Shown here: one piece after another, positions 4,187-34,214 of the stretch
How the letters are laid out: each line of letters starts with the position of its first letter
Numbering within the stretch: the stretch's first letter is position 1
Assembly (NCBI GenBank): GCA_944386125.1
Contig: CALWZX010000002.1
Coordinates: forward strand, 1 to 39,851
Direction: 5' to 3'
Source of the DNA: an uncultured Clostridia bacterium
Lineage (GTDB): Bacteria > Bacillota > Clostridia > TANB77 > CAG-508
Length of the DNA stretch: 39,851 bases
Translations under genes and position numbers: made by a program
Notes under the pieces: generated by a model
The model's input: the letters and a program-made list of their open reading frames with translations, nothing else
Database searches by the model: none
What the model was told of the DNA's origin: nothing

Positions 4187-4216
4187 ATAAGTAATATTAT
4201 ATAAAGGAGAAAAAAC

Positions 4217-4675: not shown

Positions 4676-4692
4676 ATAATTATGGAGGAATC

Positions 4693-5274: not shown

Positions 5275-5300
5275 AAATTATAGTTAGAAAGTGAGAAAAT

Positions 5301-7558: not shown

Positions 7559-7573
7559 AATAGGAGTATCAAA

Positions 7574-18111: not shown

Positions 18112-20409
18112 ATGAAAGTAGATTTTATAACAAGACATGCGATACCAAATTATGGTTCTATTTTGCAAACTTATGCAACACAAAAAGTATTAGAAAAATT
18201 AGGATGTGACTCAGAAGTAATTAATTATATACAACTAGAAGAAACAGGAGGAAAAACAATTGCTACTAATTGTCATATAGAAAATAAAGGATGGAAAGCA
18301 AAACTAAAAAGAATAGCTTATTTAATTGTTCAACAGCCTAATGTTACTCATATGCACAAAACATTTGCAAAATTTAGAAAAAAATATTTAAAACAAACAG
18401 TAAAAGAGTATCATTCTTTAGAAGAATTAAAGCAAGATTTACCAAAAGCTGACGTATATTGCACAGGAAGTGACCAAGTTTGGGCAAAAATTGGAGCAAA
18501 AAATTATGATGAGGCTTACTTTTTGGAATTTGTACCAGAGGAAAAAAGATGTATTTCCTATGCAGCAAGTTTTGGAAAAAGTAAGATTGACGAAGAATTA
18601 GAAAAAAAGTTACCACAATTTTTAAAAAAATATGAAACAATTTTAGTAAGAGAAAATACCGCAGAAGAAATCATACAAAAACAAGGTTTTCAGAATGTAA
18701 AACAGGTCTTAGATCCTACTTTATTATTAAATCAAGAAGAGTGGAGTAAACTTGCTGAAAAAAATAAGTTAGAAAATAAAGAATATATTTTAGTATATCA
18801 GTTGCACCATAATAAACAAATGGAAGATTATCTAAGAAAATTAAAAAAGCATACAAATCTTCCTATATATAGAATTCATCCTTCTTTATATTATGGAATA
18901 AAACCAGGAAAATTTTTATATTTACCAACACCAGGACAGTATATTAGCTATATACAAAATGCAAAATATATTGTAACAGATTCTTTTCATGGTACAGTAT
19001 TTTCTTTAATCTTTGGTAAAAATTTTGTAGATATTTTGCCAGGAGAAACTTCAACAAGAATTGAAAGCATTTTAAAATTAGTAGGACAAGAAGAGAGAAT
19101 TATCAAAGACTTTAACAATTTTGATTGGCTTAATCAAAATATAGATTATGAAAAAATTACACCAATTTTAGAAAAAGAAAGACAAATATCATTACAAGAT
19201 TTCAAACAGGCTCTTATGAAAGGTTGTAAAGAAAATGTTCAAAATTGTATGGCGCAAGAAAAAGTGTGTACTGGATGCCGTGCATGTGAACAACTATGCC
19301 CAAAACATGCTATTACTATGGAGGAAAATGAAGAAGGTTTTTTAATGCCTCATGTAAATGAAGAGCTATGCATAGATTGTAAGCTATGTGTGCAAAGATG
19401 CCCACAATTAAAAAAAAGAGAAGAAATAACTACTAAGCAAGAATGTTATGCAGCAAAAATAAAAAATGAAGAAATTTTAATGAAAAGTTCTTCAGGAGGA
19501 ATTTTTTCAGCATTGGCAAATTACGTTTTAGAAAAAAAGGGAAAAGTGTATGGAGCAACATTTACAAAAGATTTGACTGTAGAACATATAGCAATAGAAA
19601 GCAAAGAGCAACTAGCATTATTAAGAGGTTCTAAATATGTGCAAAGTAATACAAAAAATACCTTTCAAGAAGTAAAACAAGATTTAACAGAAGGAAAAAT
19701 GGTATTATATTCAGGAACACCTTGTCAAATTGCAGGTTTGCAACAATATTTAGGAAAAGAAGAATCAAATTTATTGACAGTAGATATTGTATGCCATGGA
19801 GTTCCTAGTCCACAGCTATTTAAGAAATATAAAGAATACTTAGAAGAAAAAGAACAAGCTAAAATAGAGGAGTTTTCATTTAGAGATAAAGAAAAAGGAT
19901 GGGGGAAATATTTAAAAATTAGGTTTGACAATGGAAAAGAGATACATCAGTTTTGTGATTTAGATCCATATTATCAGTCTTTTATGAGTGGAGACTTAGC
20001 AAGAAAAGTATGCTATGAATGTATGTATGCCAATACGAATCGAGTCAGTGATATTACTATAGCTGACTACTGGGGAATAGAAATAGAACATCCAGAATGG
20101 AATACAAAACAAGGAGTATCAGCAGTTATTGTTAATACTACAAAAGGAAAACAAATGTGGGAAAAAATAAAAGAAAATGTAGAATATATTCCTTCAACTA
20201 TAGAAAAAATAAAAAAACATAATGAAAATTTGAACCATCCAACAAAAAAGAAAAAAATACGAGAACATATATATGATGGGCTAAAAAATAAAGATTTTCA
20301 AACATTTGCTAAGGAAAATCTACACTTTAAAAAAACAATAAAAGCACGAGTAAAAAATTATATTTCAGAAGATGCCATTAGAAAAGTAAAAATGAGAATT
20401 AAAAAATAG
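18112..20409 (+). CDS. Fusion protein: polysaccharide pyruvyl transferase (PF04230-like) + 2x[4Fe-4S] ferredoxin + FrhB/FdhB-like (coenzyme F420 hydrogenase beta-type) domain
   Basis: N-terminal half has TGSDQVW, ISYAASFG, VLDPTLLL and TDSFHGTVFSLIF. The middle has CTGCRACEQLCP and CIDCKLCVQRCP. C-terminal half has MKSSSGGIF, GTPCQIAGL, VCHGVPSP, FRDKEKGWG and ITIADYWG. Confidence 0.8.
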   Translation: MKVDFITRHAIPNYGSILQTYATQKVLEKLGCDSEVINYIQLEETGGKTIATNCHIENKGWKAKLKRIAYLIVQQPNVTHMHKTFAKFRKKYLKQTVKEYHSLEELKQDLPKADVYCTGSDQVWAKIGAKNYDEAYFLEFVPEEKRCISYAASFGKSKIDEELEKKLPQFLKKYETILVRENTAEEIIQKQGFQNVKQVLDPTLLLNQEEWSKLAEKNKLENKEYILVYQLHHNKQMEDYLRKLKKHTNLPIYRIHPSLYYGIKPGKFLYLPTPGQYISYIQNAKYIVTDSFHGTVFSLIFGKNFVDILPGETSTRIESILKLVGQEERIIKDFNNFDWLNQNIDYEKITPILEKERQISLQDFKQALMKGCKENVQNCMAQEKVCTGCRACEQLCPKHAITMEENEEGFLMPHVNEELCIDCKLCVQRCPQLKKREEITTKQECYAAKIKNEEILMKSSSGGIFSALANYVLEKKGKVYGATFTKDLTVEHIAIESKEQLALLRGSKYVQSNTKNTFQEVKQDLTEGKMVLYSGTPCQIAGLQQYLGKEESNLLTVDIVCHGVPSPQLFKKYKEYLEEKEQAKIEEFSFRDKEKGWGKYLKIRFDNGKEIHQFCDLDPYYQSFMSGDLARKVCYECMYANTNRVSDITIADYWGIEIEHPEWNTKQGVSAVIVNTTKGKQMWEKIKENVEYIPSTIEKIKKHNENLNHPTKKKKIREHIYDGLKNKDFQTFAKENLHFKKTIKARVKNYISEDAIRKVKMRIKK

Positions 20410-20423
20410 GAGAAGATTAATTC

Positions 20424-21389
20424 ATGAGATTAAGTATTATTATACCAGCATATAACGTAGAAATATATTTAAAAAAATGTATAGATAGTATCTTACCGCA
20501 AATAGGAGAAGAAGATGAAATTATTTTAGTAAATCCTGCATCTACAGATAAAACACAACAAATTTTAGAAGAATATGCTAAACAAAATTCCCATATTCAT
20601 TATTATACAATTGAAAGAGCAGGTCCATCTAAAACAAGAAATATAGGAATTCAAAAAGCAAAAGGAAAATATATATTATTTTTAGATGCTGATGATTATA
20701 TTGAAGAAAATTATATTGAAAGAATGCTAGAAGAGAGAAAAGATCATGAATTAGTGATATGCAGTTATCGTATGATTCAAGAAGAAACAGGAGAAACACA
20801 AATCAAACAATATAGTCAAAAAAAAGAAGAAATATCTTTTGATAAGATTCCTGTTTTATATGAAAAAGAATTACTCAATCTAGTTTGGAACAAAATATAT
20901 GAAACATCTATCATTCAAGAAAATCATATTACGTTTAATGAAAAATATACCAAAGGAGAAGACTTACTATTTAATTTAGCCTATATACAAAAAGTAAATA
21001 GTATAAAAGTAATTCCAGATATCTTATATAATTATATAAGAAAAAAAACAGGAGTAAGTAGGTCGTATATAGAACCAATTGAAAATAGAATAGAACGAAC
21101 TAAAATGATTTATGAAGAAATGATAAAAGCAAGTAGAGATGAAAATGTATCGCAAATTAAGAAAACTGTGATTAATCTATACTTTCATCATTTAAGAAAT
21201 TATATAAAAGAGCAAAAAATATATGCACCATGGAAAATAACAAGAACATTTAGAGAGAAAATAAAAATTGATTATTTATTACAAGATAATTTAGACGAAA
21301 GTTTGCAAAAAATAAAAAAATTATATGAGAAAAAGCACATAGTAATGATGTGCATAAAAAATAAAATGATATTAAGAAAGGAAAAATAA
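20424..21389 (+). CDS. Family 2 glycosyltransferase
   Basis: LSIIIPAYNVEIYLKKCIDSIL and GKYILFLDADDYI (DxD). Confidence 0.85.
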   Translation: MRLSIIIPAYNVEIYLKKCIDSILPQIGEEDEIILVNPASTDKTQQILEEYAKQNSHIHYYTIERAGPSKTRNIGIQKAKGKYILFLDADDYIEENYIERMLEERKDHELVICSYRMIQEETGETQIKQYSQKKEEISFDKIPVLYEKELLNLVWNKIYETSIIQENHITFNEKYTKGEDLLFNLAYIQKVNSIKVIPDILYNYIRKKTGVSRSYIEPIENRIERTKMIYEEMIKASRDENVSQIKKTVINLYFHHLRNYIKEQKIYAPWKITRTFREKIKIDYLLQDNLDESLQKIKKLYEKKHIVMMCIKNKMILRKEK

Positions 21390-22421
21390 TGAAAGTTTTT
21401 GTCAACGCTTATTTAGAACAAAATTTAGGGGACGATTTATTTTTCTATATATTAAAAAATAGGTATCCACAGCATAATTTTTATGTGTTATCTACTTTTT
21501 GGAATGATGAAAATAATGTAAAAGTTTATCGTAATCATTTTTTTAATAAAATAATTAAAAAATTACAAATGAAAAGTATTATTGCTAATCGTTGTGATAT
21601 AAGTATTTCCTTAGGAGGAAGTATATATATCGAAAATAAAAATGATAAAAATAGAAAATTTTCATTAGGGAAAAATCCATATTATGTTGTAGGAAGTAAT
21701 TTCGGACCGTATCTTACACAAGAATTTTATCAAAAAGCATATGAGTTTTTTAAACGGAGCAGAAGATGTATGTTTTAGAGACAAGTATTCCTATGAATTA
21801 TTTTCTACTATTCCTCAAGTTCGTTATGCGACAGACTTGGTATTTAATTTAGATACTTCTCAAATACAGTTAACGAATAGAAAAAGAGTTGTATTTTCCA
21901 TTATAGACTGTAATGAAAAAATGAATCAAAAATATACGAAAGCATATGAACAGAAAATGATAGAGATGACAAAATTTGCACTTAGTCAAGGATATGAAGT
22001 TTGTTATATGTCTTTTTGCAGAATAGAAAAAGATGAAGAAGCGATAGAGCGTATTATAGGGCAATGTGATGAGCAGTTACGAAAACAAATTCAAACATAT
22101 TATTATAGAGGAAATATACAAGAGGCACTACAAATATTAGCTGATTGTCAGGCTATTGTAGGAGCAAGGTTTCATTCTAATATATTAGGTTTACTTTTTC
22201 AGAAGACAATTATACCTGTGATATATAGTGACAAAACAAAAAAAGTATTAGAAGATATTTCATTTCAAGGGAAAATGGTAGATATTGAAAATATTAGCGA
22301 CTTACAAATGGAAAAAATATGGAACAAAGAAAACTTAAATTATCAATTAGATATCACAGACATCAAAGAAAATGCTAAAAAACAATTTGAGGGATTGGAT
22401 AAAATATTAAAGAAAGGATAA
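21389..22421 (+). pseudogene. Polysaccharide pyruvyl transferase family protein (CsaB/WcaK-like) split by a +1 frameshift at a T6 run (track ORFs 21389-21778 and 21741-22421)
   Basis: The N-terminal ORF has NLGDDLF and GGSIY. The second ORF continues with DVCFRDKYSYE...GARFHSNILG. The frame switch sits at GAGTTTTTTAAACGG, with the T-run at 21746-21751. Confidence 0.7.
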
Positions 22422-22424
22422 AAA

Positions 22425-23834
22425 ATGAATAAGGAAAAACAACTATTAAAAAACACGGCCATTATTTCTATAGGAAAAATATGTACTCAAGTTATTACTT
22501 TTTTCTTATTACCACTATATACCGCAGTATTAACTACTGAGGAATATGGAATTGTAGATATTTTAAATACTTTAGTTAGTCTTTTAATTCCTATTGTTAC
22601 TTTACAAATAGAACAAGCAACTTTTCGATTTTTATTAGATGCAAAAAATGAAGAAAATGAACAAAAAAGTATTATTACCTCTGTAGTTTTTTTTAGTATT
22701 TTACAAATTGTTATCTATTTAATCTTATTTGCTATTATTAGTCCATGGATAAATAATGTTTATAAATATTTTTTAGTAGCTAATTTAGTAGTAACTGTAT
22801 TTTCATCTATATTTTTACAAATCAGTAGAGGACTACGTGATAATGTTACGTATACCATCGGAAGCTTTCTTTCAGGTTTTTTCACCGTTATCTTAAATGT
22901 TATTTTAATTGTTGTATTCAAAATGGGAGCTTATGGAATCTTAATAGCAACATTTATTGGAAATTTGATTTGTGTAATATATATCATTTTGAAAAAGAAA
23001 GTTTACCAGTATATAAAGGTTTCTTATTTTGATAAAAACTTGCTAAAAAAATTGTTAAAATATTCTATACCATTAGTACCAAACATGATATCGTGGTGGG
23101 TAGTTAATGCTTCAGATAGAACAATTGTTACAGCAATATTAGGCGTTGCAACTAATGGAATTTATTCAGCGGCTAATAAATTTTCAGGAGTATTCTTTGC
23201 TTTAAATGGTATTTTTAATATTACGTGGACAGAATCAGCAGTAGTAAATATAGAGGAAAAAGATAAAGATGCTTATTTTAGTAAAATATTTTCAGTAACA
23301 ATTCGTGTATTTGGTTCTTTATGTTTAGGTGTTATAGCATTAATGCCATTTGTCTTTCCAATATTGATCAATGAAAAATTTGGAGATGCATATTATCAAA
23401 TACCAATTTTAATGGTAGGCATTATGTTTAATATATTAGTTAGCTTTCTAGGTTCTATCTATGTGGCAAAAAAATTAACAAAAGAAATTTCTAAAACATC
23501 TATATTAGCAGCACTGATTAATATTGTAGTTAATTTGATGTTAATACAGTTTATAGGATTATATGCAGCATCATTATCAACTGCTATAGCATATTTTTCT
23601 ATGTTTTTATATCGATATATAGATTCTAGAAAATATGTTGAAATAAAAATCGATTCTACCTTTGTTGTTTCTATTATTGCAGTATATGCAATTACAATTT
23701 TTACATATTATATTAGAAATTTAGCACTTTCAGGAATTATTGCAATGGGAGTTATATTATATGCAATATATATTAATAGAAACAGTGCCAAATTTATCAT
23801 AGATATGGTAAAGAAAAAATTTATAAAAAAATAG
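22425..23834 (+). CDS. wzx: Oligosaccharide flippase (Wzx, MOP superfamily)
   Basis: 469 aa, about 12-14 TM segments, N-terminal LLKNTAIISIGKICTQVITFFLLPLYT typical of the Polysacc_synt family. Confidence 0.8.
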   Translation: MNKEKQLLKNTAIISIGKICTQVITFFLLPLYTAVLTTEEYGIVDILNTLVSLLIPIVTLQIEQATFRFLLDAKNEENEQKSIITSVVFFSILQIVIYLILFAIISPWINNVYKYFLVANLVVTVFSSIFLQISRGLRDNVTYTIGSFLSGFFTVILNVILIVVFKMGAYGILIATFIGNLICVIYIILKKKVYQYIKVSYFDKNLLKKLLKYSIPLVPNMISWWVVNASDRTIVTAILGVATNGIYSAANKFSGVFFALNGIFNITWTESAVVNIEEKDKDAYFSKIFSVTIRVFGSLCLGVIALMPFVFPILINEKFGDAYYQIPILMVGIMFNILVSFLGSIYVAKKLTKEISKTSILAALINIVVNLMLIQFIGLYAASLSTAIAYFSMFLYRYIDSRKYVEIKIDSTFVVSIIAVYAITIFTYYIRNLALSGIIAMGVILYAIYINRNSAKFIIDMVKKKFIKK

Positions 23835-23850
23835 TAGGAGAATGAATAAT

Positions 23851-24927
23851 ATGAAAAAAGTTGGAATTGTAACAATTTATGATACAAATAATTATGGAAA
23901 TCGTTTACAAAATTATGCTATGCAAGAAGTTTTAAGCAAGATGGGTGTAGAGGTAGAAACACTAAGAAATTATGCTAATACTAATAAGGAAGATAATAGA
24001 ATAATTCATACTCTAAAAAGAATAAAAAACGGATTACAACGAGTAAAGAAAATAGGCAATAAGAGGGCAAAATGTTTTCAGGAGTTTGACAGAAATATTG
24101 AGTTTGCTTCAAAAGAATTAAGATGGGATAATGCTGGGCAATTTGTCAAAAACTATGATTATTTTGTAACAGGTAGTGATCAAGTATGGAATCCTTATTT
24201 TGATAGATTATCTAAAATAGAATTATTAGAATTTGCACCACCAGAGAAAAGAATTAGTATTGCAGCAAGTTTTGGCGTAGAAAAATTAGAAGCTAAGTAT
24301 GAAAAAGAATGTCAAAAAGCTTTAAATGAATTTCATGCAATATCTGTACGAGAACAGCAAGGAAAGCAAATTATACAGCAAATGGAAGGAATATCTAAGG
24401 AAAAAGAAATAGAAGTTGTTTTGGATCCTACTATGATGCTTACAGAAAAGCAATGGGAAAAGGTAATGAAAAAGCCAAAGGATATGCCACAAGGAAAATA
24501 CATTCTTAATTATTTTTTAGGAGAACTAGAAGAAGAAACAAAACAATATATAGAAAAAATGGCAAAAGAAAATAATTGCCAGATCATTCAATTATTAGAT
24601 TTGAAAGAAAAGTTACATAATACAGGACCAAGTGAGTTTTTATATTTGATACAACATGCTTTTTTAATATGTACTGATTCTTTCCATTCCTGTGTATTTT
24701 CTATTCTTTTTCAAAAACCTTTTATTATAGTAGAAAGAAAATCTAAGAAAAATATGAATTCTAGAATTGATACATTGCTCGATACTTTTAGCTTACAAGA
24801 TAGAAAATTAAAGACAAATGATATACAAGATATGAAAAGTATAGATTATCAAAAAGTATTTGAAGTATTAGAAAAAGAAAAAATGAAAGAAACAGAATGG
24901 ATAAAGAAAGCACTAAATATAAAATAA
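23851..24927 (+). CDS. Polysaccharide pyruvyl transferase family protein (stand-alone)
   Basis: VGIVTIYDTNNYGNRLQNYA, TGSDQVWNP, ISIAASFG, VLDPTMML, TDSFHSCVFSILF. ATG 23851 sits 9 nt after AGGAGA; the track's ATG 23842 abuts the RBS. Confidence 0.8.
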   Translation: MKKVGIVTIYDTNNYGNRLQNYAMQEVLSKMGVEVETLRNYANTNKEDNRIIHTLKRIKNGLQRVKKIGNKRAKCFQEFDRNIEFASKELRWDNAGQFVKNYDYFVTGSDQVWNPYFDRLSKIELLEFAPPEKRISIAASFGVEKLEAKYEKECQKALNEFHAISVREQQGKQIIQQMEGISKEKEIEVVLDPTMMLTEKQWEKVMKKPKDMPQGKYILNYFLGELEEETKQYIEKMAKENNCQIIQLLDLKEKLHNTGPSEFLYLIQHAFLICTDSFHSCVFSILFQKPFIIVERKSKKNMNSRIDTLLDTFSLQDRKLKTNDIQDMKSIDYQKVFEVLEKEKMKETEWIKKALNIK

Positions 24928-24939
24928 GGAAGAAAAAAT

Positions 24940-26103
24940 ATGGAAATAGAAGAATTAAAAAAAGAACAATGCTATGGGTGTAGTGCATGTATGAATATAT
25001 GCCCTAAAAAAGCAATATCCATGAAGCAAGATGAAAAAGGATTTTACTATCCTCATATTGACCAAAATTTATGTATACATTGTGGGTTATGTACAAAAGC
25101 ATGCCCATCTATACAACGAGCAAATAAGAATGAGAAGTTAATAAGATCTTATGCTTGTAAAAATAAAAAGGATGACATTCGTATGAAAAGCTCTTCGGGA
25201 GGAATTTTTACATTACTTGCACAATATGTTTTGAAGCAAAAAGGAATTGTATTTGGAGCTAGATGGAATAAAAATTTTATGGTAGAACATAGTTTTATTG
25301 AAAAAGAAGAAGATATTACACTTTTTAGAGGTTCCAAGTACTTACAAAGTAATATAAAAAAAAGTTATAAGCAAGTAAAAATATTTTTAGAGAAAGGAAA
25401 AATAGTACTATTTACAGGAACACCTTGTCAGATAGCAGGTTTGAAAACTTTTTTAGGCAAAGAATATGAGAATTTATATACACAAGATTTTATTTGCCAT
25501 GGAGTGCCATCACCAAAATTTTGGAAAAAATATTTAACATACAAAACACCAAATGATGCAGAAATTACAAATATTAACTTTAGGGATAAAGAAAAATATG
25601 ATTGGGATAATTTTAGTTTAGCTATAGACTTTAACAACAAAAAGCGATATAATAGGATCAATACAAAAGACTTCTTTATGCAAGTATTTTTGTCAGATAT
25701 TTGCTTAAGAGATTCTTGCTATGCATGTCCATATAAAAATCACAAAACTTTGGCAGATATTACTCTTGCAGATTTATGGGGAGCAAAAGAAATAATACCT
25801 AGTATGTATGATAACAAGGGAGTTTCTTTGGCTATCTGCTATACGAAGAAAGGACAAGAACTAATGGATGCTATTAATCCATATATAGAAAAACAAGAAA
25901 TCTCTTTAGAAAAAGTAGGAAAATATAATAAAAGTTTATTAAAACCAGCAGTTAAACCAGAAAATAGGGAACAATTTTTTATAGATTTAGAAAAGCAAGA
26001 TTTTAAAAGGATTATCAAGACTTATAAGAAACGTTTTATAGGAATAAAACGATTTTATAGGAAGTGTAAAGGAGGGGTGAAAAAACTAATTCTATTTCGT
26101 TAA
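24940..26103 (+). CDS. FrhB/FdhB-like Fe-S flavoprotein with an N-terminal 2x[4Fe-4S] ferredoxin domain (annotated-type: coenzyme F420 hydrogenase/dehydrogenase beta subunit)
   Basis: CYGCSACMNICP, CIHCGLCTKACP, MKSSSGGIF, GTPCQIAGL, ICHGVPSP, FRDKEKYDW, ITLADLWG. It is collinear with the C-terminal half of the 18112 ORF. Confidence 0.75.
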   Translation: MEIEELKKEQCYGCSACMNICPKKAISMKQDEKGFYYPHIDQNLCIHCGLCTKACPSIQRANKNEKLIRSYACKNKKDDIRMKSSSGGIFTLLAQYVLKQKGIVFGARWNKNFMVEHSFIEKEEDITLFRGSKYLQSNIKKSYKQVKIFLEKGKIVLFTGTPCQIAGLKTFLGKEYENLYTQDFICHGVPSPKFWKKYLTYKTPNDAEITNINFRDKEKYDWDNFSLAIDFNNKKRYNRINTKDFFMQVFLSDICLRDSCYACPYKNHKTLADITLADLWGAKEIIPSMYDNKGVSLAICYTKKGQELMDAINPYIEKQEISLEKVGKYNKSLLKPAVKPENREQFFIDLEKQDFKRIIKTYKKRFIGIKRFYRKCKGGVKKLILFR

Positions 26104-26122: not shown

Positions 26123-28603
26123 ATGAAAACAAAAACAAGGATGTTTTTACTAGTAAGTATTATTTTACTTACAGTAATATTATTGGCAAGTATCTCATCT
26201 AATAGTTTTGCAGTAGAAAAAGTAGAAGAATTAAACTTAGAAAATGAAACACAGCCAAGTCAAGCTTTTACTATGGAACCAACAATAACAACATTTTCTA
26301 TGGCCAAAGCAAGTACATTATGGCAATATGAAGTAGAAGAAAATGTGGCTACAATCACAGGTTATACAGGAACAGAAACCAATATTACCATTCCATCAAC
26401 TATTGATGGATATACGGTTAAAGCAATTGGAAGAGCAGCATTTTATCAAAATACCAATATTAAAAGTGTTACCATTCCGAATACAGTAGAAGATATCGAA
26501 GAAGGAGCTTTTGCAGATTGTACGAACTTATCTAACATAACATTAGGAAATGCTGTACAATATATTGCCCCTTACGCATTTCAAAAAACAAAAATAACTT
26601 CTATTAATATTCCTGCATCAGTAGATAACTTAAACAATTTAGCATTTTTTCATTGTGAAAATTTAACACAAATTACCATAGCAGAAAATAACAAAGAATA
26701 TAAGGCAATTAATGGAGTTGTATTTGATAAAGAAGTAACGCAAATTCTCTTTTATCCATATGCTAAAAAAGATACAACTTATACTATACCATCCACAGTA
26801 AAAAGAATTAGAGAAGAAGCCTTTATGAATAATTATTTACAAAAAATTGTTATTCCTAAAAGTGTGAATACAATCAAAACAGATTTATATTGCTTTACTA
26901 CTCCAGCATTAACCACTATAGAAGTTAGTTCAGAAAATCCATATTTTGCAAGTGTCAATGGGGTACTTTTTAGTAAAGATAAGAAAACCATTTATGCCTA
27001 TCCAGCAGGAAAAACAGCAGAAAGTTACACAATTCCAACAGGAACACAAATCATTGAGCAAAATGCTTTCTTTAAAGCCAAATATTTAAAATATGTTACC
27101 ATTCCACAAACAGTAACAACAATGGAAGCAGTTGCTTTTCGTTATGCAGAGGGATTAGAAGAAATTACCATTCCTTCTAGTGTAACAGAATTTGGCTCAG
27201 GAATGTTTGGAGATTGTCCTAATTTAAAAAAGGCAACTATTAATGGCAATATGGAAATACTTTCGTATTTAACTTTTGATGAATGCCCTATGTTAGAAGA
27301 AGTAATTGTTAATGGAAATATAGAAACCATTGCTAAAGGAGCATTTTATAAATGTCCTAAACTTACCAAAGTTACCTTACCAGATAGTCTTAAAACTATC
27401 ATTAACCAAGCATTTTTCTATTGTAACTCATTAAAAGCAATTACTATTCCTAAAAATGTAGAAATTATAGAAGCAGCAGCTTTTTATGATTATACTAGAC
27501 CACCAGAATACGAAGCAGATATACAATTAGATATTAGTAAAACACAATTAAAGAAACAACCAGATGGAAGTTATATAGCAGGCTATAGCTATTCTGTAAA
27601 AGGAACAAGAGATTATGAAAAGGCATACCAAGTATTAGATATAGTTAACCAATATAGACAACAAAATGGATTAACACCATATGTGATGGATGAGTCTTTA
27701 TTAGAAACAGCAATGATAAGAGCAGCAGAAACAGTAGCTTTATTTGATCATACCAGACCAAATGGTATGATGTATGATACAGCTATTACCAGAAACTGGT
27801 CTATTTGTGGAGAAAACATAGCATGTTATCAAAGAACAGCACAAGATGTTATGAATAGTTGGATGAATTCGGACGGCCATAGAGGAAATATTTTAAGAAA
27901 TTATTTTGATTCTATAGGAATAGGATGTTTCTTAGCAGATGATGGAAATTATTATTGGACACAAGTATTTATTAAAGGAGAAGGAACACCACCTACAACA
28001 AAGCCAGCAAATAAGTCTGTTGTGGAAAACATTTTAATTAGAAATAGTTATCTACCTTTTAGAGATGTGTCAGAAAGTGAGTGGTACTATCAAGCAATAC
28101 AATACAATGTATCTCACCATTACATTTTGGGAACAAATTCATCAACTTTTCAACCAAATACAAAAATTTCAAGGGCTATGATGGTTACCATTTTATGGAG
28201 AATGGTAGGAGAACCAAAAGTAACCAATGGAAAAAATTTCCCAGATGTAAAAACAACGGATTATTATTATAATGCCGTAAAATGGGCATCAGCTAAAGGA
28301 ATTGTAAATGGATATAACAGTGGAAAATTTGCACCAAATGATAATATAACTAGAGAACAGCTAGCCGTTATTTTACAAAACTATTCAAAATATATGAAAC
28401 GAGATGTATCGAAAACAACCAGTTTAAGCAAATTTAAAGATGGGTACAAAACCACAGGATATGCACAACCAGCTGTAAAATGGGCAGTAGCAACAGGTGT
28501 TATGTCAGGAAAAGATAACGGAACAAGACTAGATCCACAAGGAACAGCAACTAGAGCAGAGGCAGCAGCTATGATTTATAATTATTTCACAAGAATGAAA
28601 TAG
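26123..28603 (+). CDS. Secreted SLH-anchored protein A: BspA-type leucine-rich repeats + CAP/SCP (YkwD-like) domain + 3 SLH repeats
   Basis: Signal peptide. Repeated ...ITIPSTV..IG..AF..C..L..I units run roughly 26330-27500. The CAP domain is at about 27620-27975 (QYRQQNGL...GENIA...GHRGNIL...IGIG). The SLH cassette starts at 28052. Confidence 0.85.
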   Translation: MKTKTRMFLLVSIILLTVILLASISSNSFAVEKVEELNLENETQPSQAFTMEPTITTFSMAKASTLWQYEVEENVATITGYTGTETNITIPSTIDGYTVKAIGRAAFYQNTNIKSVTIPNTVEDIEEGAFADCTNLSNITLGNAVQYIAPYAFQKTKITSINIPASVDNLNNLAFFHCENLTQITIAENNKEYKAINGVVFDKEVTQILFYPYAKKDTTYTIPSTVKRIREEAFMNNYLQKIVIPKSVNTIKTDLYCFTTPALTTIEVSSENPYFASVNGVLFSKDKKTIYAYPAGKTAESYTIPTGTQIIEQNAFFKAKYLKYVTIPQTVTTMEAVAFRYAEGLEEITIPSSVTEFGSGMFGDCPNLKKATINGNMEILSYLTFDECPMLEEVIVNGNIETIAKGAFYKCPKLTKVTLPDSLKTIINQAFFYCNSLKAITIPKNVEIIEAAAFYDYTRPPEYEADIQLDISKTQLKKQPDGSYIAGYSYSVKGTRDYEKAYQVLDIVNQYRQQNGLTPYVMDESLLETAMIRAAETVALFDHTRPNGMMYDTAITRNWSICGENIACYQRTAQDVMNSWMNSDGHRGNILRNYFDSIGIGCFLADDGNYYWTQVFIKGEGTPPTTKPANKSVVENILIRNSYLPFRDVSESEWYYQAIQYNVSHHYILGTNSSTFQPNTKISRAMMVTILWRMVGEPKVTNGKNFPDVKTTDYYYNAVKWASAKGIVNGYNSGKFAPNDNITREQLAVILQNYSKYMKRDVSKTTSLSKFKDGYKTTGYAQPAVKWAVATGVMSGKDNGTRLDPQGTATRAEAAAMIYNYFTRMK
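28052..28600 (+). repeat. Conserved 3' SLH cassette, copy 1 of 5
   Basis: Encodes LPFRDV...WYY...MVTILWRMVGEPK...FPDVK..DYYYNAVKWASAKGIVNGYNSGKFAPND.ITREQLAVILQNYSKYMK...YAQPAVKWAVATGV.SGKD.GTRLDPQGTATRAEAAAMIYNYF. 28280-28342 is identical to 29934-29996 (63 nt). Confidence 0.9.
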
Positions 28604-28616
28604 AGGGGGAAAAACA

Positions 28617-30257
28617 ATGAATAAAAAATTCATAAAAATTAGTTTATTAATTATTTTGGCAATATGTGTACTCATGTTAACCACTTACACATATGCAAGC
28701 CAAGCTAATACAGAAGCAGTAGAAATGACTACCATTATTACACAACCAAGTGAAGGTATGATAGAACAAGGCAAAGTAATGAATGTAGAAAAAATAGAAA
28801 AATCAGTAGAAATGTCTGGAGCAAAAGAATTTGCCAACCATCTATTTTGGTTATCCAGAGAATATGATATGGAAGATGTGAATCGTGATTTAAAAGAAAA
28901 GGTAACTTTACAAAGTACAGATGCTTCTTATCAAACTTTAGAAAAAATGGCAAATGGAAAATTGTATTTATACTTAGGATTACATATAGACAAACCAGAG
29001 GGAATGCAAAAAATAGAATTACTTAATGCAGAAGGAATTAATTTATTAGATGTACAAGACTTCAGTTTTTCAGAAAAATTAGCAGATGGTTCTTACAATT
29101 ATTACTTAGAATATGCATTTAAAAATGGTAATGAATGGGCACAAGGAGCAGGATTTGCCAATGTTAATCAAAAAATGACAGTATGTTATTATGCAAATGA
29201 AGAAGATAAAGAGCCAGCATCATCTAGCGAACTTATACTTACTCCAGTAAACGAAACAAAAGCTACTACTACACCATTTGAAAGTTATATATTAACAGAA
29301 AATTCAGAATGGAAAAAGGTAGAATATAATCAATTTGACGAAGGAATTGTAGGAGTAAACGGAGATAAAGCAAAAGAACTAATAGATAACATTAGTTATG
29401 ATAAAAATACACAAACTGTAACCTTCCATAACATAGGAACGGGATATGATAATGAACTAATTAGAGTAGCTACACCAAATATTCATGTAATAGGAGAAAA
29501 TGTATTTGCAGAACTATTTTGTGCAAGTATGAAAACAACTATTACGATGGATGCAGGGGCAACCATGAGAACATTTATTACACGACTAGCCACAGATGAA
29601 TCAGAAGTAAAATATGGAGAAGAAATTGAAGAAACTTTTCAATATACCTATACAGCCGGAAAAACTATTTACGTAAAAAAGAATAATTATTTAACGAGTA
29701 CTAAACTACAATTCAAAGATGTAAAAAAAGGCGATTGGTTTTATGAAGCAGTAAAATATAATACAGAAAGAGGATTTATCAGAGGTGCCAATGATACAGA
29801 GTTTAAACCTGAAACAAACATTTCAAGAGGAATGATGGTTACTATTTTATGGAGAATGGTAGGAGAACCAAAAATAACAGGAGGAAAGAGTTTCCCAGAT
29901 GTTAAAACTAGTGACTATTACTATATTGCTGTGAAATGGGCATCAGCTAAAGGAATTGTAAATGGATATAACAGTGGAAAATTTGCACCAAATGATGATA
30001 TAACCAGAGAACAATTAGCAGTAATTTTACAAAATTACTCCAAATATATGAAAAGAGATGTATCTAAAACCACCAGTTTAAGCAAATTTAAAGATGGGTA
30101 TAAAACCACAGGATATGCACAAACAGCAGTAAAGTGGGCAGTAGCAACAGGAGTTATATCAGGAAAAGATAAAGGAACAAGACTAGATCCACAGGGAACA
30201 GCAACTAGAGCAGAAGCTGCAGCTATGATTTATAATTATTTTACAAGAATGAAATAG
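28617..30257 (+). CDS. Secreted SLH-anchored protein B: ~360-aa N-terminal region with no domain I recognise + 3 SLH repeats
   Basis: Signal peptide (...TYTYASQA). The SLH cassette starts at 29706. Confidence 0.8.
   Translation: MNKKFIKISLLIILAICVLMLTTYTYASQANTEAVEMTTIITQPSEGMIEQGKVMNVEKIEKSVEMSGAKEFANHLFWLSREYDMEDVNRDLKEKVTLQSTDASYQTLEKMANGKLYLYLGLHIDKPEGMQKIELLNAEGINLLDVQDFSFSEKLADGSYNYYLEYAFKNGNEWAQGAGFANVNQKMTVCYYANEEDKEPASSSELILTPVNETKATTTPFESYILTENSEWKKVEYNQFDEGIVGVNGDKAKELIDNISYDKNTQTVTFHNIGTGYDNELIRVATPNIHVIGENVFAELFCASMKTTITMDAGATMRTFITRLATDESEVKYGEEIEETFQYTYTAGKTIYVKKNNYLTSTKLQFKDVKKGDWFYEAVKYNTERGFIRGANDTEFKPETNISRGMMVTILWRMVGEPKITGGKSFPDVKTSDYYYIAVKWASAKGIVNGYNSGKFAPNDDITREQLAVILQNYSKYMKRDVSKTTSLSKFKDGYKTTGYAQTAVKWAVATGVISGKDKGTRLDPQGTATRAEAAAMIYNYFTRMK
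29706..30254 (+). repeat. Conserved 3' SLH cassette, copy 2 of 5
   Basis: 29820-29905 is identical to 31803-31888 (86 nt) in copy 3. Confidence 0.9.
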
Positions 30258-30269
30258 GGGGATGAGTTT

Positions 30270-32240
30270 ATGAAGAGAAAAATGGGAATAGGAATAGCTT
30301 TATTCCTAATCACTTTATGTAGTATATTTTTTATACAGGGAAAAGTAGATGCAGCGACAGTATATAATGATGAAATTAGTTATGAAGAAGAATATGATGG
30401 AACTATTACAGTACGTGCAGCAGGAGAGTATATAGAAAAAGCAACGATACCTTCTACTATTAATGGAAAAACTGTAACCAAGATAGATTATTCAGGTTTT
30501 CAAAATTGTAAATATTTAGAAACCGTTACATTGCCTAGTACTATCAAAGAAATAGAAGCTTATGCTTTTGAAGGTTGTACTTCTCTTACAAGTATTAATA
30601 TTCCATCACAAGTAAAAACAATACCTTATTGGGCTTTTCAAAATTGTTCTTCTTTAAGAAATATTAATCTTTCTAATGTGACAAAGATAGAACCATATGC
30701 TTTTAATGGATGCTCTAGTTTAACATCTGTTACATTTTCTGCTAATTTACAATCTATTGGAGACGGAGCATTTAAAGATACTAAAGCACTAAAAACAGTA
30801 AATTTACCTTCTCAATTAACATATTTAGGAGATTCTGCATTTGAAGCAAGTGGATTGACTAGTATTACAATACCTACTAGTGTAAAAGAAATGCCAAGTA
30901 ATTATGGAGCATTTGAAAATTGCAAATCCTTAAAAACAGCAACAATTAATGCTTCTGTAACAAAAATACCATATAATTTATTTAAGGATTGCACTGCTTT
31001 AACAACAGTAAAATTTTCAAGCTCTAGTCCAGTAATTAATTTTGATCGTTACGTATTTTCAGGATGTTCTTCACTTACTAATGTAACGTTACCACCAAAA
31101 TTACAAAATATTTCTAACTATTGTTTTGAAAATTGTACAGCGCTTACTACAATTACTATTCCAGATACAGTAACAACAATAGGAGTACATGCATTTTCAG
31201 GGTGTAGTAAGTTATCTAGTATAAAAATTCCTTACGGAGTAAAAGAAATACAACAGTATGCGTTTTCAGATTGCACATCATTAAAAAATATTTACTTTAC
31301 AAAGTCAATACAAGAAATAGAAAAATGGGCATTTGAAAATTGTTCTACAAGTAATTTGAAGATATATGGCTATTCTGGTACAGCTGCTAAATATTTTGCA
31401 CAAGAAAATGGTTATTCTTTTACAGAATGTACACCTGTATCTAGCATAAAAATAAGTGGAAATACTTCTGTAGTTAAAAAATCTAGTGTTACTTTAAAGG
31501 CCAATGTTTCTCCAACTAATGCCTATAACAAAACTGTAAAATGGTCAAGTAGTAACCCTAGTATTGCTTCAGTTTCTTCTTCTGGAGTGGTAACAGGTAA
31601 AGCAATAGGAACAGCAACCATTACAGCTATGGCAACAGACGGAACAGGAGCAAAAGGAACTTATATAATTACAGTAAAAGCAACAGATTTACCATTTAAA
31701 GATGTAACAGTGGATGAGTGGTATTATGGAGCAATAAAATATACATATCAAAAAGGAATTATCAAAGGAGCAAATGATACAGAATTTAAACCAAATGTCA
31801 ATATTTCAAGAGGAATGATGGTTACTATTTTATGGAGAATGGTAGGAGAACCAAAAATAACAGGAGGAAAGAGTTTCCCAGATGTTAAGACTAGTGACTA
31901 TTACTATAATGCCGTAAAATGGGCATCGGCTAAAGGAATTGTAAATGGATATAACAGCGGAAAATTTGCCCCAAATGATGATATAACAAGAGAACAATTA
32001 GCAGTTATTTTACAAAATTACTCAAAATATATGAAACGAGATGTATCCAAAACAACCAACTTAAGCAAATTTAAAGATGGATATAAAACAACAGGTTATG
32101 CACAACCAGCAGTAAAATGGGCAGTAGCAACAGGAGTTATATCAGGAAAAGATAAAGGAACAAGACTAGACCCACAGGGAACAGCAACTAGAGCAGAAGC
32201 TGCAGCTATGATTTATAATTATTTTACTAAAATAAAATAG
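30270..32240 (+). CDS. Secreted SLH-anchored protein C: BspA-type leucine-rich repeats + Big_2 domain + 3 SLH repeats
   Basis: Signal peptide (...GKVDAA). LRR units run roughly 30360-31440. Big_2 is at about 31438-31683 (VTLKANVSPTNA..VKWSSSNPSIASV...GTATITA). The SLH cassette starts at 31689. Confidence 0.85.
   Translation: MKRKMGIGIALFLITLCSIFFIQGKVDAATVYNDEISYEEEYDGTITVRAAGEYIEKATIPSTINGKTVTKIDYSGFQNCKYLETVTLPSTIKEIEAYAFEGCTSLTSINIPSQVKTIPYWAFQNCSSLRNINLSNVTKIEPYAFNGCSSLTSVTFSANLQSIGDGAFKDTKALKTVNLPSQLTYLGDSAFEASGLTSITIPTSVKEMPSNYGAFENCKSLKTATINASVTKIPYNLFKDCTALTTVKFSSSSPVINFDRYVFSGCSSLTNVTLPPKLQNISNYCFENCTALTTITIPDTVTTIGVHAFSGCSKLSSIKIPYGVKEIQQYAFSDCTSLKNIYFTKSIQEIEKWAFENCSTSNLKIYGYSGTAAKYFAQENGYSFTECTPVSSIKISGNTSVVKKSSVTLKANVSPTNAYNKTVKWSSSNPSIASVSSSGVVTGKAIGTATITAMATDGTGAKGTYIITVKATDLPFKDVTVDEWYYGAIKYTYQKGIIKGANDTEFKPNVNISRGMMVTILWRMVGEPKITGGKSFPDVKTSDYYYNAVKWASAKGIVNGYNSGKFAPNDDITREQLAVILQNYSKYMKRDVSKTTNLSKFKDGYKTTGYAQPAVKWAVATGVISGKDKGTRLDPQGTATRAEAAAMIYNYFTKIK
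31689..32237 (+). repeat. Conserved 3' SLH cassette, copy 3 of 5
   Basis: Near-identical protein and DNA to copies 2 and 4. Confidence 0.9.
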
Positions 32241-32242
32241 AC

Positions 32243-32284
32243 AAAAGGAGAACTTGGAATATAAAATAGCAAGTTCTCCTTTTT
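32243..32284 (+). terminator. Strong rho-independent terminator after SLH gene C
   Basis: AAAAGGAGAACTTG (32243-32256) pairs with CAAGTTCTCCTTTT (32270-32283), with a 13-nt loop and a T-rich tail. Confidence 0.85.
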
Positions 32285-32315
32285 CTAAACTATTTTGGAA
32301 AACATAAAAAAATGA

Positions 32316-32344
32316 TTGAACAGATAAGAAATAAATGATATAAT
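32316..32344 (+). promoter_or_regulatory. Putative sigma-A promoter for SLH genes D-E
   Basis: TTGAAC (32316-32321), 17-nt spacer, TATAAT (32339-32344). Lies 27 nt upstream of ATG 32371. Confidence 0.6.
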
Positions 32345-32370
32345 TTTTCCAGATAAAGGAGAAATAAAAA

Positions 32371-34212: not shown

Positions 34213-34214
34213 AA

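What the first reader, a model, noticed from the sequence alone, without database searches (positions are those of the whole stretch)
18112..20409. Rosetta-stone fusion of a polysaccharide pyruvyl transferase to a ferredoxin + FrhB-like (F420-hydrogenase-beta-type) oxidoreductase
Seen: one 765-aa ORF. Its first ~370 aa align by eye with the stand-alone pyruvyl-transferase-family ORF at 23851-24927 (TGSDQVW; ISYAASFG vs ISIAASFG; VLDPTLLL vs VLDPTMML; TDSFHGTVFSLIF vs TDSFHSCVFSILF). Its last ~385 aa align with the stand-alone ORF at 24940-26103 (two CxxCxxCxxxCP motifs, MKSSSGGIF, GTPCQIAGL, CHGVPSP, FRDKEK, IADYWG vs LADLWG). Known: PF04230 enzymes use PEP to put pyruvate ketals on sugars. 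FrhB/FdhB-like proteins are flavin/Fe-S redox subunits, and cofactor F420 is not expected in Bacillota. Inference: the fusion argues that the transferase and the redox module act on the same intermediate. One possibility is reduction of an enolpyruvyl ether to a lactyl (1-carboxyethyl) ether, following MurA/MurB logic. Another is some other redox tailoring of the pyruvylated sugar. As far as I know, no experimental role has been established for the FrhB-like partner in polysaccharide loci.
Basis: partly seen in the sequence, partly recalled or inferred. Interest (0 to 1): 0.72.

Follow-up and report, generated by a model that had tools for sequence, protein, structure and literature searches.

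The report
Fused lactyl-ether synthase for wall polysaccharide
One 765-residue protein joins a pyruvyl-transferase-type enzyme to an iron-sulfur flavoprotein reductase, and comparison with E. coli and Klebsiella antigens suggests the pair attaches lactic-acid ethers, not ordinary pyruvate ketals, to a cell-wall sugar polymer.

Summary
ORF 18112-20409 encodes PS_pyruv_trans + 2x[4Fe-4S] ferredoxin + FrhB_N/FrhB_C. Its two halves are paralogous to the stand-alone genes at 23842-24927 and 24940-26103. The fusion is real and common: the 120 best database hits share the architecture, reverse-order fusions exist, and AlphaFold gives pLDDT 93 and pTM 0.90. In 80 genomes, 69 FrhB-like genes have a pyruvyl-transferase (PvT) gene within 8 kb. 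These are fused, adjacent, or separated only by a Wzx flippase.

The lactyl-ether idea has comparative-genetic support. The E. coli O124/O164 O-antigen cluster has wzx, an FrhB-like gene and a PvT of the same subfamily. O124 carries lactyl-glucose. O164 carries plain glucose, and the literature attributes this to a frameshift in "wfeP". The only indel I found between two such clusters lies in the PvT gene. In Klebsiella K22/K37 (lactyl-GlcA, no ketal) and on E. coli plasmids, a nitroreductase-family gene pairs with the PvT (on the plasmids in the FrhB slot).

Most likely mechanism: enolpyruvyl transfer from PEP, then ferredoxin/flavin-driven reduction to a 1-carboxyethyl ether. No biochemistry exists for the reductase. 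The PvT-lactyl link is already in the O-antigen literature, so novelty is moderate. The reductase class, its spread in anaerobes and this fused form remain uncharacterised.

The parts
18112..20409 (+). Fused gene, 765 aa: PvT-like transferase + ferredoxin + FrhB-like reductase
   Evidence: ORF. Pfam. All 120 best database relatives share the architecture. AlphaFold pLDDT 93.2, pTM 0.90.
18148..19029 (+). PS_pyruv_trans domain (aa 13-306), 'group A' subfamily with motifs GSDQVW, VRE, DPT and TDSFH
   Evidence: Pfam 133 bits. GT-B-type fold hits. Invariant N13, G15, Q19, G119, D121, Q122, R180, E181, P202, S291, F292, H293 in 97 homologs. blastp hits to 63 of the 77 PvT ORFs found in the FrhB-containing loci.
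19267..19404 (+). 2x[4Fe-4S] ferredoxin domain (aa 386-431), two CxxCxxCxxxCP motifs
   Evidence: Fer4_7 and Fer4 hits. C386, C392, C396, C420, C423, C426 and C430 are invariant and C389 is >=90% conserved.
19444..20181 (+). FrhB-like flavin/[4Fe-4S] core (FrhB_FdhB_N aa 445-514, FrhB_FdhB_C aa 529-690)
   Evidence: Pfam. Foldseek hits to FrhB-type subunits, Fsr and HCAR, E 1e-14 to 1e-9. Invariant C538, C561, C634, C637; in the SSGG motif (aa 460-463) S461 is invariant and G462/G463 are >=90% conserved.
23842..24927 (+). Stand-alone group-A PvT paralog, partner of the next gene
   Evidence: Pfam 138 bits. 32% identical to the fused N half. Same subfamily as FrhB-associated PvTs.
24940..26103 (+). 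Stand-alone ferredoxin + FrhB-like reductase paralog
   Evidence: Pfam. 44% identical to the fused C half, E 1e-98.
22425..23834 (+). Wzx-type flippase. In 26 of 80 loci exactly one gene separates PvT and FrhB-like; most of these are ~510-aa hydrophobic, Wzx-like proteins
   Evidence: Polysacc_synt. Triad statistics. One example confirmed as Polysacc_synt.
21389..22421 (+). Third PvT gene, frameshifted into 129-aa and 226-aa ORFs. It belongs to a different, CsaB/WcaK-like subfamily with a GARFH motif and has no reductase partner
   Evidence: Pfam and NCBIfam. T6 run at 21746-21751. Same split in five assemblies. No blastp hit to any FrhB-associated PvT.
13839..18102 (+). Upstream genes of the same glycopolymer locus: LCP ligase (13839-14960), WbaP-like priming phosphotransferase (15135-15827), UDP-galactopyranose mutase Glf (15840-16940), EpsG-family polymerase-like protein (16954-18102)
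   Evidence: NCBIfam and Pfam.
20424..21389 (+). GT2 glycosyltransferase immediately downstream of the fusion
   Evidence: Pfam 123 bits.
26123..36785 (+). Five consecutive SLH-domain surface proteins (with LRR_5, CAP, Big_2 or SH3 domains), probable clients of the wall polymer
   Evidence: Pfam SLH x3 in each.

Best explanation
The gene encodes a bifunctional lactyl-ether (1-carboxyethyl) synthase for a Wzx/Wzy-made, LCP-attached cell-wall glycopolymer that contains galactofuranose.

Step 1 (inferred from family membership): the N-terminal group-A PS_pyruv_trans domain uses phosphoenolpyruvate to put an enolpyruvyl group on one sugar hydroxyl. The acceptor is either the lipid-linked repeat unit or a nucleotide sugar.

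Step 2 (inferred): instead of closing to a cyclic pyruvate ketal, the enol ether is reduced to a lactyl ether by the C-terminal module. Electrons enter through the two ferredoxin-type [4Fe-4S] clusters, pass the third cluster of the FrhB core and reach a flavin, which delivers them to the C=C bond. The donor is probably reduced ferredoxin or another low-potential carrier, not F420.

This follows MurA/MurB logic using unrelated folds. The neighbouring pair 23842-24927 / 24940-26103 is a second, unfused copy of the same two-step module. The polymer is therefore predicted to carry two different lactyl ethers. The conserved linkage to Wzx suggests that the modification is made in the cytoplasm before flipping.
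For: **Shown**
- Domain content and conserved cofactor ligands.
- A confident rigid two-module model, with the C half matching FrhB, Fsr and HCAR folds.
- Recurrent independent fusions in both orders.
- PvT within 8 kb of the FrhB-like gene in 69 of 80 genomes. Nine are fused, 30 adjacent and 26 separated by one gene, usually Wzx-like.
- A dedicated PvT subfamily is associated with the reductase.

**Chemotype links**
- The E. coli O124/O164 cluster reads wzx, FrhB_N+C protein, group-A PvT.
- O124 has D-Glc lactyl ether and O164 has plain Glc. The clusters are >99.4% identical and the difference is ascribed to a frameshift in wfeP (PMC7685785).
- Across the 12.8-kb galF-gnd region of two such genomes I found 4 SNPs and one 1-bp indel. 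The indel lies inside the PvT gene.
- That review lists pyruvate ketals only for O112ac, O149 and O156.
- Klebsiella K22/K37 have a PvT plus a nitroreductase-family gene, and K66 has a PvT plus an 'F420 hydrogenase' gene. All three are listed as PvT-positive without pyruvylation. K22 contains 4-O-[(S)-1-carboxyethyl]-GlcA (title cited in PMC3857182).
- On E. coli plasmids a nitroreductase-family protein occupies exactly the FrhB slot between Wzx and PvT. This non-orthologous displacement says the partner's job is flavin-dependent reduction.
- Lactyl-Galf is a known decoration of a Bacillota wall polymer, the E. faecalis diheteroglycan (PMC3060912).
Against: - No enzyme of this pair has been assayed, and the FrhB-like gene has never been knocked out as far as I could find.
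- I could not read Liu 2008 or Knirel 2017. That wfeP is the PvT gene is my inference from the single indel, and I do not know the serology of the six E. coli strains.
- The K66 capsule structure could not be verified.
- Characterised PF04230 enzymes all make ketals.
- A minority of FrhB-like genes sit with classical Arg-containing PvTs, with no PvT, or outside polysaccharide loci.
- The enterobacterial and Lactiplantibacillus FrhB-like proteins lack the ferredoxin domain, so the electron-input route is not uniform.
- SLH proteins next door would classically call for a pyruvate ketal.
Confidence: 0.65

Rival explanations
1. Ordinary pyruvate-ketal formation. The PvT domain makes a normal 4,6- or similar ketal, for example to anchor the adjacent SLH proteins. 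The Fe-S/flavin module is accessory and acts as a redox sensor, regulator or structural partner.
For: All biochemically characterised PF04230 enzymes are ketal formers (own knowledge; Pvg1p in PMC4872226). Five SLH-domain proteins follow the locus, and SLH domains are known to bind pyruvylated wall polymers (own knowledge).
Against: - O124 and Klebsiella K22/K37/K66 have this kind of pair but no ketal.
- Classical ketal enzymes such as WcaK have no reductase neighbour.
- The FrhB slot can be filled by an unrelated flavin reductase, which points to catalysis rather than sensing.
- The CsaB-like PvT in this window is a different, unpartnered gene.
Confidence: 0.1
2. A different redox tailoring coupled to pyruvylation. 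Examples are oxidation or reduction of the acceptor sugar to create the right hydroxyl, or reductive processing of a ketal such as decarboxylation or carboxylate reduction.
For: The fusion and co-location data show only that the two activities act together, not which bond is reduced. Fd-FrhB modules also fuse to DUF6270, which is not detectably PvT-like.
Against: The only chemotypes linked to these gene pairs are lactyl ethers. No known bacterial polysaccharide substituent corresponds to the alternative products (own knowledge).
Confidence: 0.13
3. A redox-neutral flavoenzyme. The FrhB-like module uses reduced flavin catalytically, as chorismate synthase does on an enolpyruvyl ether, to isomerise or cyclise the PvT product without net reduction.
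For: There is precedent for reduced-flavin, redox-neutral chemistry on enolpyruvyl ethers and in UDP-galactopyranose mutase (own knowledge). Glf is in the same locus.
Against: A three-cluster electron wire is more than a redox-neutral catalyst would be expected to need. The lactyl chemotype of O124 and K22 needs net two-electron reduction.
Confidence: 0.05
4. The fusion is an artefact or pseudogene, for example a lost stop codon between two genes.
For: The same window contains one genuinely frameshifted PvT.
Against: The identical ORF occurs in five assemblies. All 120 best homologs down to about 35% identity have the same architecture, with ligands conserved in both halves. pTM is 0.90.
Confidence: 0.01

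Closest known systems
E. coli O124/O164 (= Shigella dysenteriae type 3) O-antigen genes: wfeP (PvT family) plus the adjacent FrhB-like gene
   Same: Group-A PS_pyruv_trans (hhalign probability 100%, E 2e-41) next to an FrhB_N+C protein (probability 98.3%) and a Wzx. Glf and Galf are in the same cluster. The product carries a lactyl ether, which is lost when the PvT gene is frameshifted.
   Different: Two separate genes rather than a fusion. The E. coli reductase has no ferredoxin domain and is only about 22% identical. It belongs to a Gram-negative O antigen rather than an LCP-attached Gram-positive wall polymer.
MurA / MurB (UDP-GlcNAc enolpyruvyl transferase and UDP-enolpyruvyl-GlcNAc reductase)
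   Same: The proposed chemistry is the same: PEP-derived enolpyruvyl ether, then flavin-dependent reduction to a D-lactyl ether.
   Different: There is no homology. The transferase is GT-B-like PF04230, not the MurA/EPSP-synthase fold. The reductase is FrhB-type with three Fe-S clusters, not an NADPH/FAD MurB.
Klebsiella K22/K37 capsule genes wclZ (PvT) + HG127 (nitroreductase family), and E. coli plasmid cassettes Wzx-nitroreductase-PvT
   Same: A PvT is paired with a flavin reductase. The capsule has 4-O-(1-carboxyethyl)-GlcA and no ketal. The plasmid cassettes have the same gene order.
   Different: The reductase belongs to an unrelated family, PF00881.
Classical ketal pyruvyltransferases (CsaB, WcaK, Pvg1p)
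   Same: Same Pfam family and GT-B-like fold. The Arg equivalent to Pvg1p R217 (R180) and the His of the xxxH motif are conserved.
   Different: - Scores far below the CsaB and WcaK equivalog cut-offs.
- Ser replaces the PEP-contacting Arg337 of Pvg1p in 60 of 65 partnered PvTs.
- The classical enzymes have no reductase partner.
Ferredoxin+FrhB modules: Fsr N-terminal half and FpoF. Non-F420 FrhB relative: HCAR (PDB 5DQR)
   Same: Same domain order (2x[4Fe-4S] ferredoxin, then the FrhB core) and same fold. HCAR shows the fold working in an organism without F420 (own knowledge).
   Different: Those enzymes reduce sulfite, feed a respiratory chain or reduce a chlorophyll substituent. None is tied to a sugar transferase.

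Membership tests
PS_pyruv_trans (PF04230) | Profile match above the curated cut-off | tested here: met
   133.1 bits against a 25.3 cut-off, aa 13-306.
PS_pyruv_trans (PF04230) | GT-B-like two-Rossmann fold | tested here: met
   The N half of the pLDDT-93 model matches GT-B UDP-GlcNAc 2-epimerases and WaaC, E 1e-8 to 1e-5. The only solved sequence homolog is Pvg1p 5AX7.
PS_pyruv_trans (PF04230) | Both PEP-contacting arginines of Pvg1p (R217, R337) | tested here: inconclusive
   R180 is invariant and is a plausible R217 equivalent, though not aligned directly. The R337 position (TDRLH) is Ser291 (TDSFH), invariant in 97 fused homologs.
PS_pyruv_trans (PF04230) | Forms a cyclic pyruvate ketal from PEP | not testable with these tools
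   Chemotypes linked to this subfamily (O124, K22/K37) are lactyl ethers, not ketals.
CsaB (TIGR03609) / WcaK equivalogs | Score above the equivalog cut-off | tested here: not met
   CsaB model 24.6 bits against a 213 cut-off. WcaK is not among the 25 best of 29 families shown.
FrhB/FdhB family (PF04422 + PF04432) | Both profile matches above cut-off and an FrhB fold | tested here: met
   41.4 and 91.7 bits. Foldseek hits 8RJA_E, 8RIU_B, FrhB, Fsr and HCAR at E <= 1e-9.
FrhB/FdhB family (PF04422 + PF04432) | Four cysteines for the core [4Fe-4S] cluster and a flavin site | tested here: inconclusive
   C538, C561, C634 and C637 are invariant, and SSGG (aa 460-463) is conserved (S461 invariant, G462/G463 >=90%) in 97 homologs. 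The cysteines and the SSSGG motif are also seen in the E. coli O124 protein. Actual cofactor binding was not measured.
FrhB/FdhB family (PF04422 + PF04432) | Uses coenzyme F420 | not testable with these tools
   Hosts are Clostridia, Bacteroidales, Spirochaetia, E. coli and others, which are not known F420 producers (own knowledge). HCAR shows the fold without F420.
2x[4Fe-4S] ferredoxin domain (PF12838) | Two CxxCxxCxxxCP motifs | tested here: met
   C386/389/392/396 and C420/423/426/430, conserved.
MurA/MurB pathway | Homology to MurA (EPSP-synthase fold) and MurB (FAD_binding_4) | tested here: not met
   No such Pfam or NCBIfam hits and no such fold hits. It works like this pathway but is not a member.
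O124-type lactyl-sugar module (group-A PvT + flavin reductase + Wzx) | Group-A PvT, reductase partner, Wzx in the same operon | tested here: met
O124-type lactyl-sugar module (group-A PvT + flavin reductase + Wzx) | Product carries a 1-carboxyethyl ether | not testable with these tools
   Needs NMR or MS of the polymer.

The most novel reading that the evidence does not exclude
The ferredoxin/FrhB-like module is a previously unrecognised class of enolpyruvyl-ether reductase. It would be a non-homologous, Fe-S/flavin analogue of MurB, driven by low-potential electrons. In that case lactyl ethers are a common, overlooked decoration of capsules and wall polymers in gut and rumen anaerobes: thousands of 50%-identity clusters, most with a PvT partner. 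A more speculative extension applies to this organism. The classical CsaB-like gene is frameshifted, so lactyl carboxylates rather than pyruvate ketals might be what the five adjacent SLH proteins bind.
Probability: 0.45. Interest if true: 0.75.

Novelty: new variant of a known kind. Interest (0 to 1): 0.6.

Why it matters
Lactic-acid ethers occur on many bacterial surface polysaccharides: E. coli O58/O69/O124/O146/O150, Klebsiella K22/K37 and the E. faecalis diheteroglycan. To my knowledge, the only biochemically understood route is MurA/MurB for muramic acid.

The FrhB-like family tied to pyruvyl transferases is very large. There are 8,662 clusters at E<=1e-30 among 1.84 billion representatives. 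It is spread over Clostridia, Bacteroidales, Spirochaetia, Negativicutes, Elusimicrobia, lactobacilli and enterobacteria. It is annotated only as 'coenzyme F420 hydrogenase beta subunit C-terminal domain'.

If the pair is a lactyl-ether synthase, three things follow:
- Thousands of capsule and O-antigen loci can be read more accurately, as lactyl rather than ketal. This matters for serotype prediction, vaccine antigens and phage receptor specificity.
- A new Fe-S flavoenzyme reaction becomes testable.
- A tractable model already exists in the near-isogenic E. coli O124/O164 clusters.

The fused form in this window gives a single polypeptide in which both steps could be assayed together.

Tried and rejected
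- **Single-sequence AlphaFold.** It gave pLDDT 37 and was unusable. I repeated it with a 97-sequence alignment.
- **blastn against E. coli genomes.** The window's C half and the K. aerogenes pair found nothing in 5,426 E. coli genomes. The route that worked was tblastn of the PvT against plasmids, then an E. coli plasmid cassette, then weak DNA hits to the O124/O164 cluster.
- **E. coli SE15.** It is reported as O150, a lactyl antigen, but its cluster is O16-type by annotation. This was a dead end.
- **Literature.** I found no paper on the function of FrhB-like genes in polysaccharide loci. Liu 2008, Knirel 2017 and Hancock & Gilmore 2002 were not held. The Butyrivibrio/carboxyethyl search returned only irrelevant metabolomics papers. 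The K66 capsule structure could not be verified.
- **R-to-S change as a hallmark.** I considered whether the change at the Pvg1p R337 position marks lactyl-forming PvTs. I rejected it as a rule because a minority of FrhB-partnered PvTs keep the Arg.
- **DUF6270.** It is another fusion partner of the reductase, and I tested whether it is a hidden PvT. hhalign probability was 0.4%, so it is not.
- **Home-made PvT HMM.** My first HMM under-detected divergent PvTs. Ten of ten weak candidates proved to be PF04230 by Pfam, so I recomputed the co-location counts.
Full report
**1. The observation**

ORF 18112-20409 (+) is a single 765-aa reading frame. Pfam places four domains in it, all above gathering scores:
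- PS_pyruv_trans at aa 13-306 (133 bits).
- A two-cluster ferredoxin domain at aa 386-431.
- FrhB_FdhB_N at aa 445-514.
- FrhB_FdhB_C at aa 529-690.

BLASTP shows the N half is 32% identical (E 2e-40) to the stand-alone pyruvyl-transferase-family ORF 23842-24927. The C half is 44% identical (E 1e-98) to the stand-alone ferredoxin+FrhB-like ORF 24940-26103.

**2. The fusion is real and common**

- The identical protein, in the same gene order, is present in five independent metagenome assemblies.
- The 120 best hits among 5.8 billion proteins, down to about 35% identity, all have the same PvT-ferredoxin-FrhB architecture; most are about 760 aa. One is an NCBI 'uncharacterized protein' of Clostridium sp. 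CAG:470.
- In alignments of 11 and 97 of these, the ferredoxin cysteines are conserved. So are four further cysteines (C538 in GTPCQ, C561 in CHGVPS, C634 and C637 in CYxCxY) and an SSGG motif. The transferase motifs GSDQ, R180-E181, DPT and S291-F292-H293 are also conserved.
- AlphaFold2 with the 97-sequence alignment gives mean pLDDT 93.2 and pTM 0.90. This means a confidently fixed arrangement of the two halves.
- Foldseek matches the C half to FrhB-type subunits: 8RJA_E, 8RIU_B, FdhB in 7BKB, FrhB, the N half of Fsr, and Arabidopsis HCAR (5DQR). It matches the N half to GT-B enzymes.
- By sequence profile, the nearest solved relatives are Fsr and 8RJA_E for the reductase and Pvg1p (5AX7) for the transferase.

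**3. Genomic context**

The gene sits in a one-strand glycopolymer locus. In order, the locus contains:
- LCP ligase (13839).
- WbaP-like priming transferase (15135).
- UDP-galactopyranose mutase (15840).
- EpsG-family protein (16954).
- The fusion.
- GT2 (20424).
- A frameshifted third PvT (21389-22421).
- Wzx (22425).
- PvT (23842).
- Fd-FrhB-like (24940).

Five SLH-domain surface proteins follow (26123-36785). GC is about 27%. The closest genome locus is an uncultured gut Clostridia MAG (L006).

**4. Co-occurrence test**

A full HMMER scan of 1.84 billion representatives with the C half finds 17,436 relatives, 8,662 at E<=1e-30. Most are about 390-aa stand-alone proteins and some are about 760-aa fusions. 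Some larger hits have the reverse order (Fd-FrhB then PvT). One 1,580-aa protein adds GT2 and GT1 domains. Others fuse the reductase to DUF6270, which is not detectably PvT-like.

A scan of one genome per species found at least 599 loci. I analysed the best 80, from Clostridia, Bacteroidales, Spirochaetia, Elusimicrobia, Negativicutes, Halothermothrix, Peptococcaceae and a gut alphaproteobacterium. Using two home-built PvT HMMs, checked by Pfam on ten weak candidates, the result was as follows (one intervening gene checked as Polysacc_synt).

| Relation of nearest PvT to the FrhB-like gene | Loci (of 80) |
|---|---|
| Fused | 9 |
| Abutting (<300 bp) | 30 |
| Exactly one gene between (mostly ~510 aa, hydrophobic, Wzx-like) | 26 |
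| Farther, within 8 kb | 4 |
| None found | 11 |
| Total with a PvT within 8 kb | 69 (68 on the same strand) |

Of the 11 loci without a PvT, several are short contigs. Of those examined on longer contigs, two to three lie in polysaccharide-type contexts without a PvT and three lie in unrelated contexts. For comparison, Klebsiella has 35 PvT genes in 79 capsule loci, and a random position within a locus would rarely be adjacent. The association is therefore specific.

The window's two partnered PvTs belong to the subfamily that contains 63 of the 77 PvT ORFs found in the FrhB-containing loci. The frameshifted third PvT hits none of them and is CsaB/WcaK-like.

**5. What the pair makes**

Three independent links point to lactyl (1-carboxyethyl) ethers.

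*(a) Klebsiella.* Pan et al. 2015 list PvT genes in four capsule types that have no pyruvate ketal: K8, K22, K37 and K66. K22/K37 pair the PvT (wclZ) with a 'nitroreductase'. K66 pairs it (wcqF) with a 'coenzyme F420 hydrogenase'. K22 contains 4-O-[(S)-1-carboxyethyl]-D-glucuronic acid; the Parolis 1988 title, cited in PMC3857182, calls it 'another glycan' containing this sugar, and from memory the earlier one is K37.

*(b) E. coli O124/O164.* tblastn of the window's PvT against plasmids led to enterobacterial cassettes. From there I reached six E. coli chromosomes whose O-antigen cluster reads: galF, wzx ('O124/O164 family'), FrhB_N+C protein, PvT, GT2, GT32, wzy, GT2, glf, GT2, gnd.
- The PvT matches the window's subfamily profile with hhalign probability 100% (E 2e-41).
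- The reductase matches the Fd-FrhB profile with probability 98.3%.
- The review PMC7685785 states that O124 has a D-Glc lactyl ether in its side chain and that O164 has plain D-Glc instead. [quoted passage not shown]
- It lists pyruvate ketals only for O112ac, O149 and O156.
- Comparing galF-gnd between a strain with a split PvT and one with an intact PvT, I find 4 SNPs and a single 1-bp indel in 12.8 kb. The indel is inside the PvT gene. The simplest reading is that wfeP is this PvT-family gene and that its loss removes the lactyl group.

*(c) Non-orthologous displacement.* On E. coli plasmids the slot between Wzx and PvT is filled by a nitroreductase-family flavoprotein instead of the FrhB-like protein. 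One plasmid carries both kinds of cassette. This says the partner's role is flavin-dependent reduction.

In addition, a lactyl-substituted galactofuranose is known in a Bacillota wall polymer, the E. faecalis diheteroglycan (PMC3060912). This fits the Glf gene in the window.

**6. Mechanism**

The steps below are inferred, not shown.
- The PvT domain adds the sugar hydroxyl to C2 of PEP and eliminates phosphate, as in MurA and in ketal pyruvyltransferases.
- The enol ether (or oxocarbenium equivalent) is then reduced at the flavin of the FrhB core instead of being trapped by a second hydroxyl.
- Electrons are supplied through three [4Fe-4S] clusters from a low-potential donor.

F420 is unlikely to be involved. 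The hosts are not F420 producers (own knowledge). HCAR shows the fold operating without F420 (the ferredoxin dependence of HCAR is own knowledge). The E. coli, K. aerogenes and L. plantarum versions lack the ferredoxin domain, so the input module differs between strict anaerobes and facultative organisms.

Whether the acceptor is a nucleotide sugar, as the O-antigen review assumes, or the lipid-linked unit is open. The conserved PvT-Wzx-FrhB triad argues only for a cytoplasmic step before flipping.

One active-site difference is worth noting. The Pvg1p Arg337, predicted to contact PEP (PMC4872226), is Ser in 60 of 65 partnered PvTs. A minority keep Arg, so this is not a rule.

**7. Novelty and verdict**

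The following remain uncharacterised:
- The reductase itself. I found no experimental work in ten full-text searches.
- The family's very wide distribution in anaerobes.
- The ferredoxin-fused and PvT-fused forms.
- The presence of two such modules next to SLH proteins, together with a broken CsaB-like gene.

I rate it a new variant of a known kind, with interest 0.6. Confidence that the pair makes a lactyl ether is 0.65.

Noticed in passing
window 21389-22421 (T6 run at 21746-21751): A third pyruvyl-transferase gene is split into 129-aa and 226-aa ORFs by what looks like a one-T expansion in a T run. It is of the CsaB/WcaK-like subfamily (GARFH motif). The same split is present in five independent assemblies. 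It parallels the natural PvT frameshift that separates E. coli O164 from O124.
   Followed up: partly
window 26123-36785: Five consecutive genes encode SLH-domain surface proteins with BspA-type LRR, CAP, Big_2 or SH3 domains, directly downstream of the glycopolymer locus. The only CsaB-like gene in the window is frameshifted. This raises the question of what the SLH domains bind.
   Followed up: no
loci L007-L085 (e.g. L011:5264-9176), L092, L087: There is a conserved three-gene arrangement: PvT, Wzx flippase, FrhB-like. It occurs in 26 of 80 genomes, on a Lactiplantibacillus plantarum plasmid, and in reverse order on the Desulfotalea psychrophila plasmid, where a ~1.5-kb stretch with no listed gene also lies between Wzx and PvT. 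The flippase may be specific for the modified unit.
   Followed up: partly
L091 (E. coli p30COLEC-2), L096 (pBDSF8-3_3), L090 (K. aerogenes p35_D): Small enterobacterial plasmids carry cassettes of flippase, reductase (FrhB-like or nitroreductase family), PvT and glycosyltransferase; the E. coli ones are bounded by IS elements. They look like mobile units for adding a modified side-branch sugar to a surface polysaccharide.
   Followed up: partly
P0234, P0248; P0191; L060:7983-14666: The ferredoxin+FrhB-like module is also fused to DUF6270, which is not PvT-like by hhalign. One 1,580-aa protein has the order FrhB-PvT-GT2-GT1. One Ruminiclostridium MAG has two tandem FrhB-PvT fusion genes, one of 1,449 aa.
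   Followed up: partly
L086 (Pseudobutyrivibrio xylanivorans pNP95): Two PvT/FrhB-like pairs lie in one EPS locus, one of them with a split PvT, next to a radical SAM/SPASM protein and GH99-like genes. From memory, Butyrivibrio-group EPS are known for lactyl-ether sugars. I could not confirm this in the held literature.
   Followed up: partly
window 3710-7999: An unusual run of four NUDIX hydrolase genes and two Ham1/ITPase-like genes. It includes a radical-SAM gene that appears split into two overlapping ORFs (5301-5612 and 5578-6381).
   Followed up: no
window 37475-39283: DUF4422 and a GT2 gene lie after the SLH block. This is possibly the start of a second glycan locus that runs off the window.
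   Followed up: no
L089 (E. coli SE15, NC_013654.1 2051509-2061975): From memory, strain SE15 is described as O150:H5. Its galF-gnd cluster is annotated as O16-family wzx/wzy with rfb and glf genes, so genotype and reported serotype disagree.
   Followed up: no
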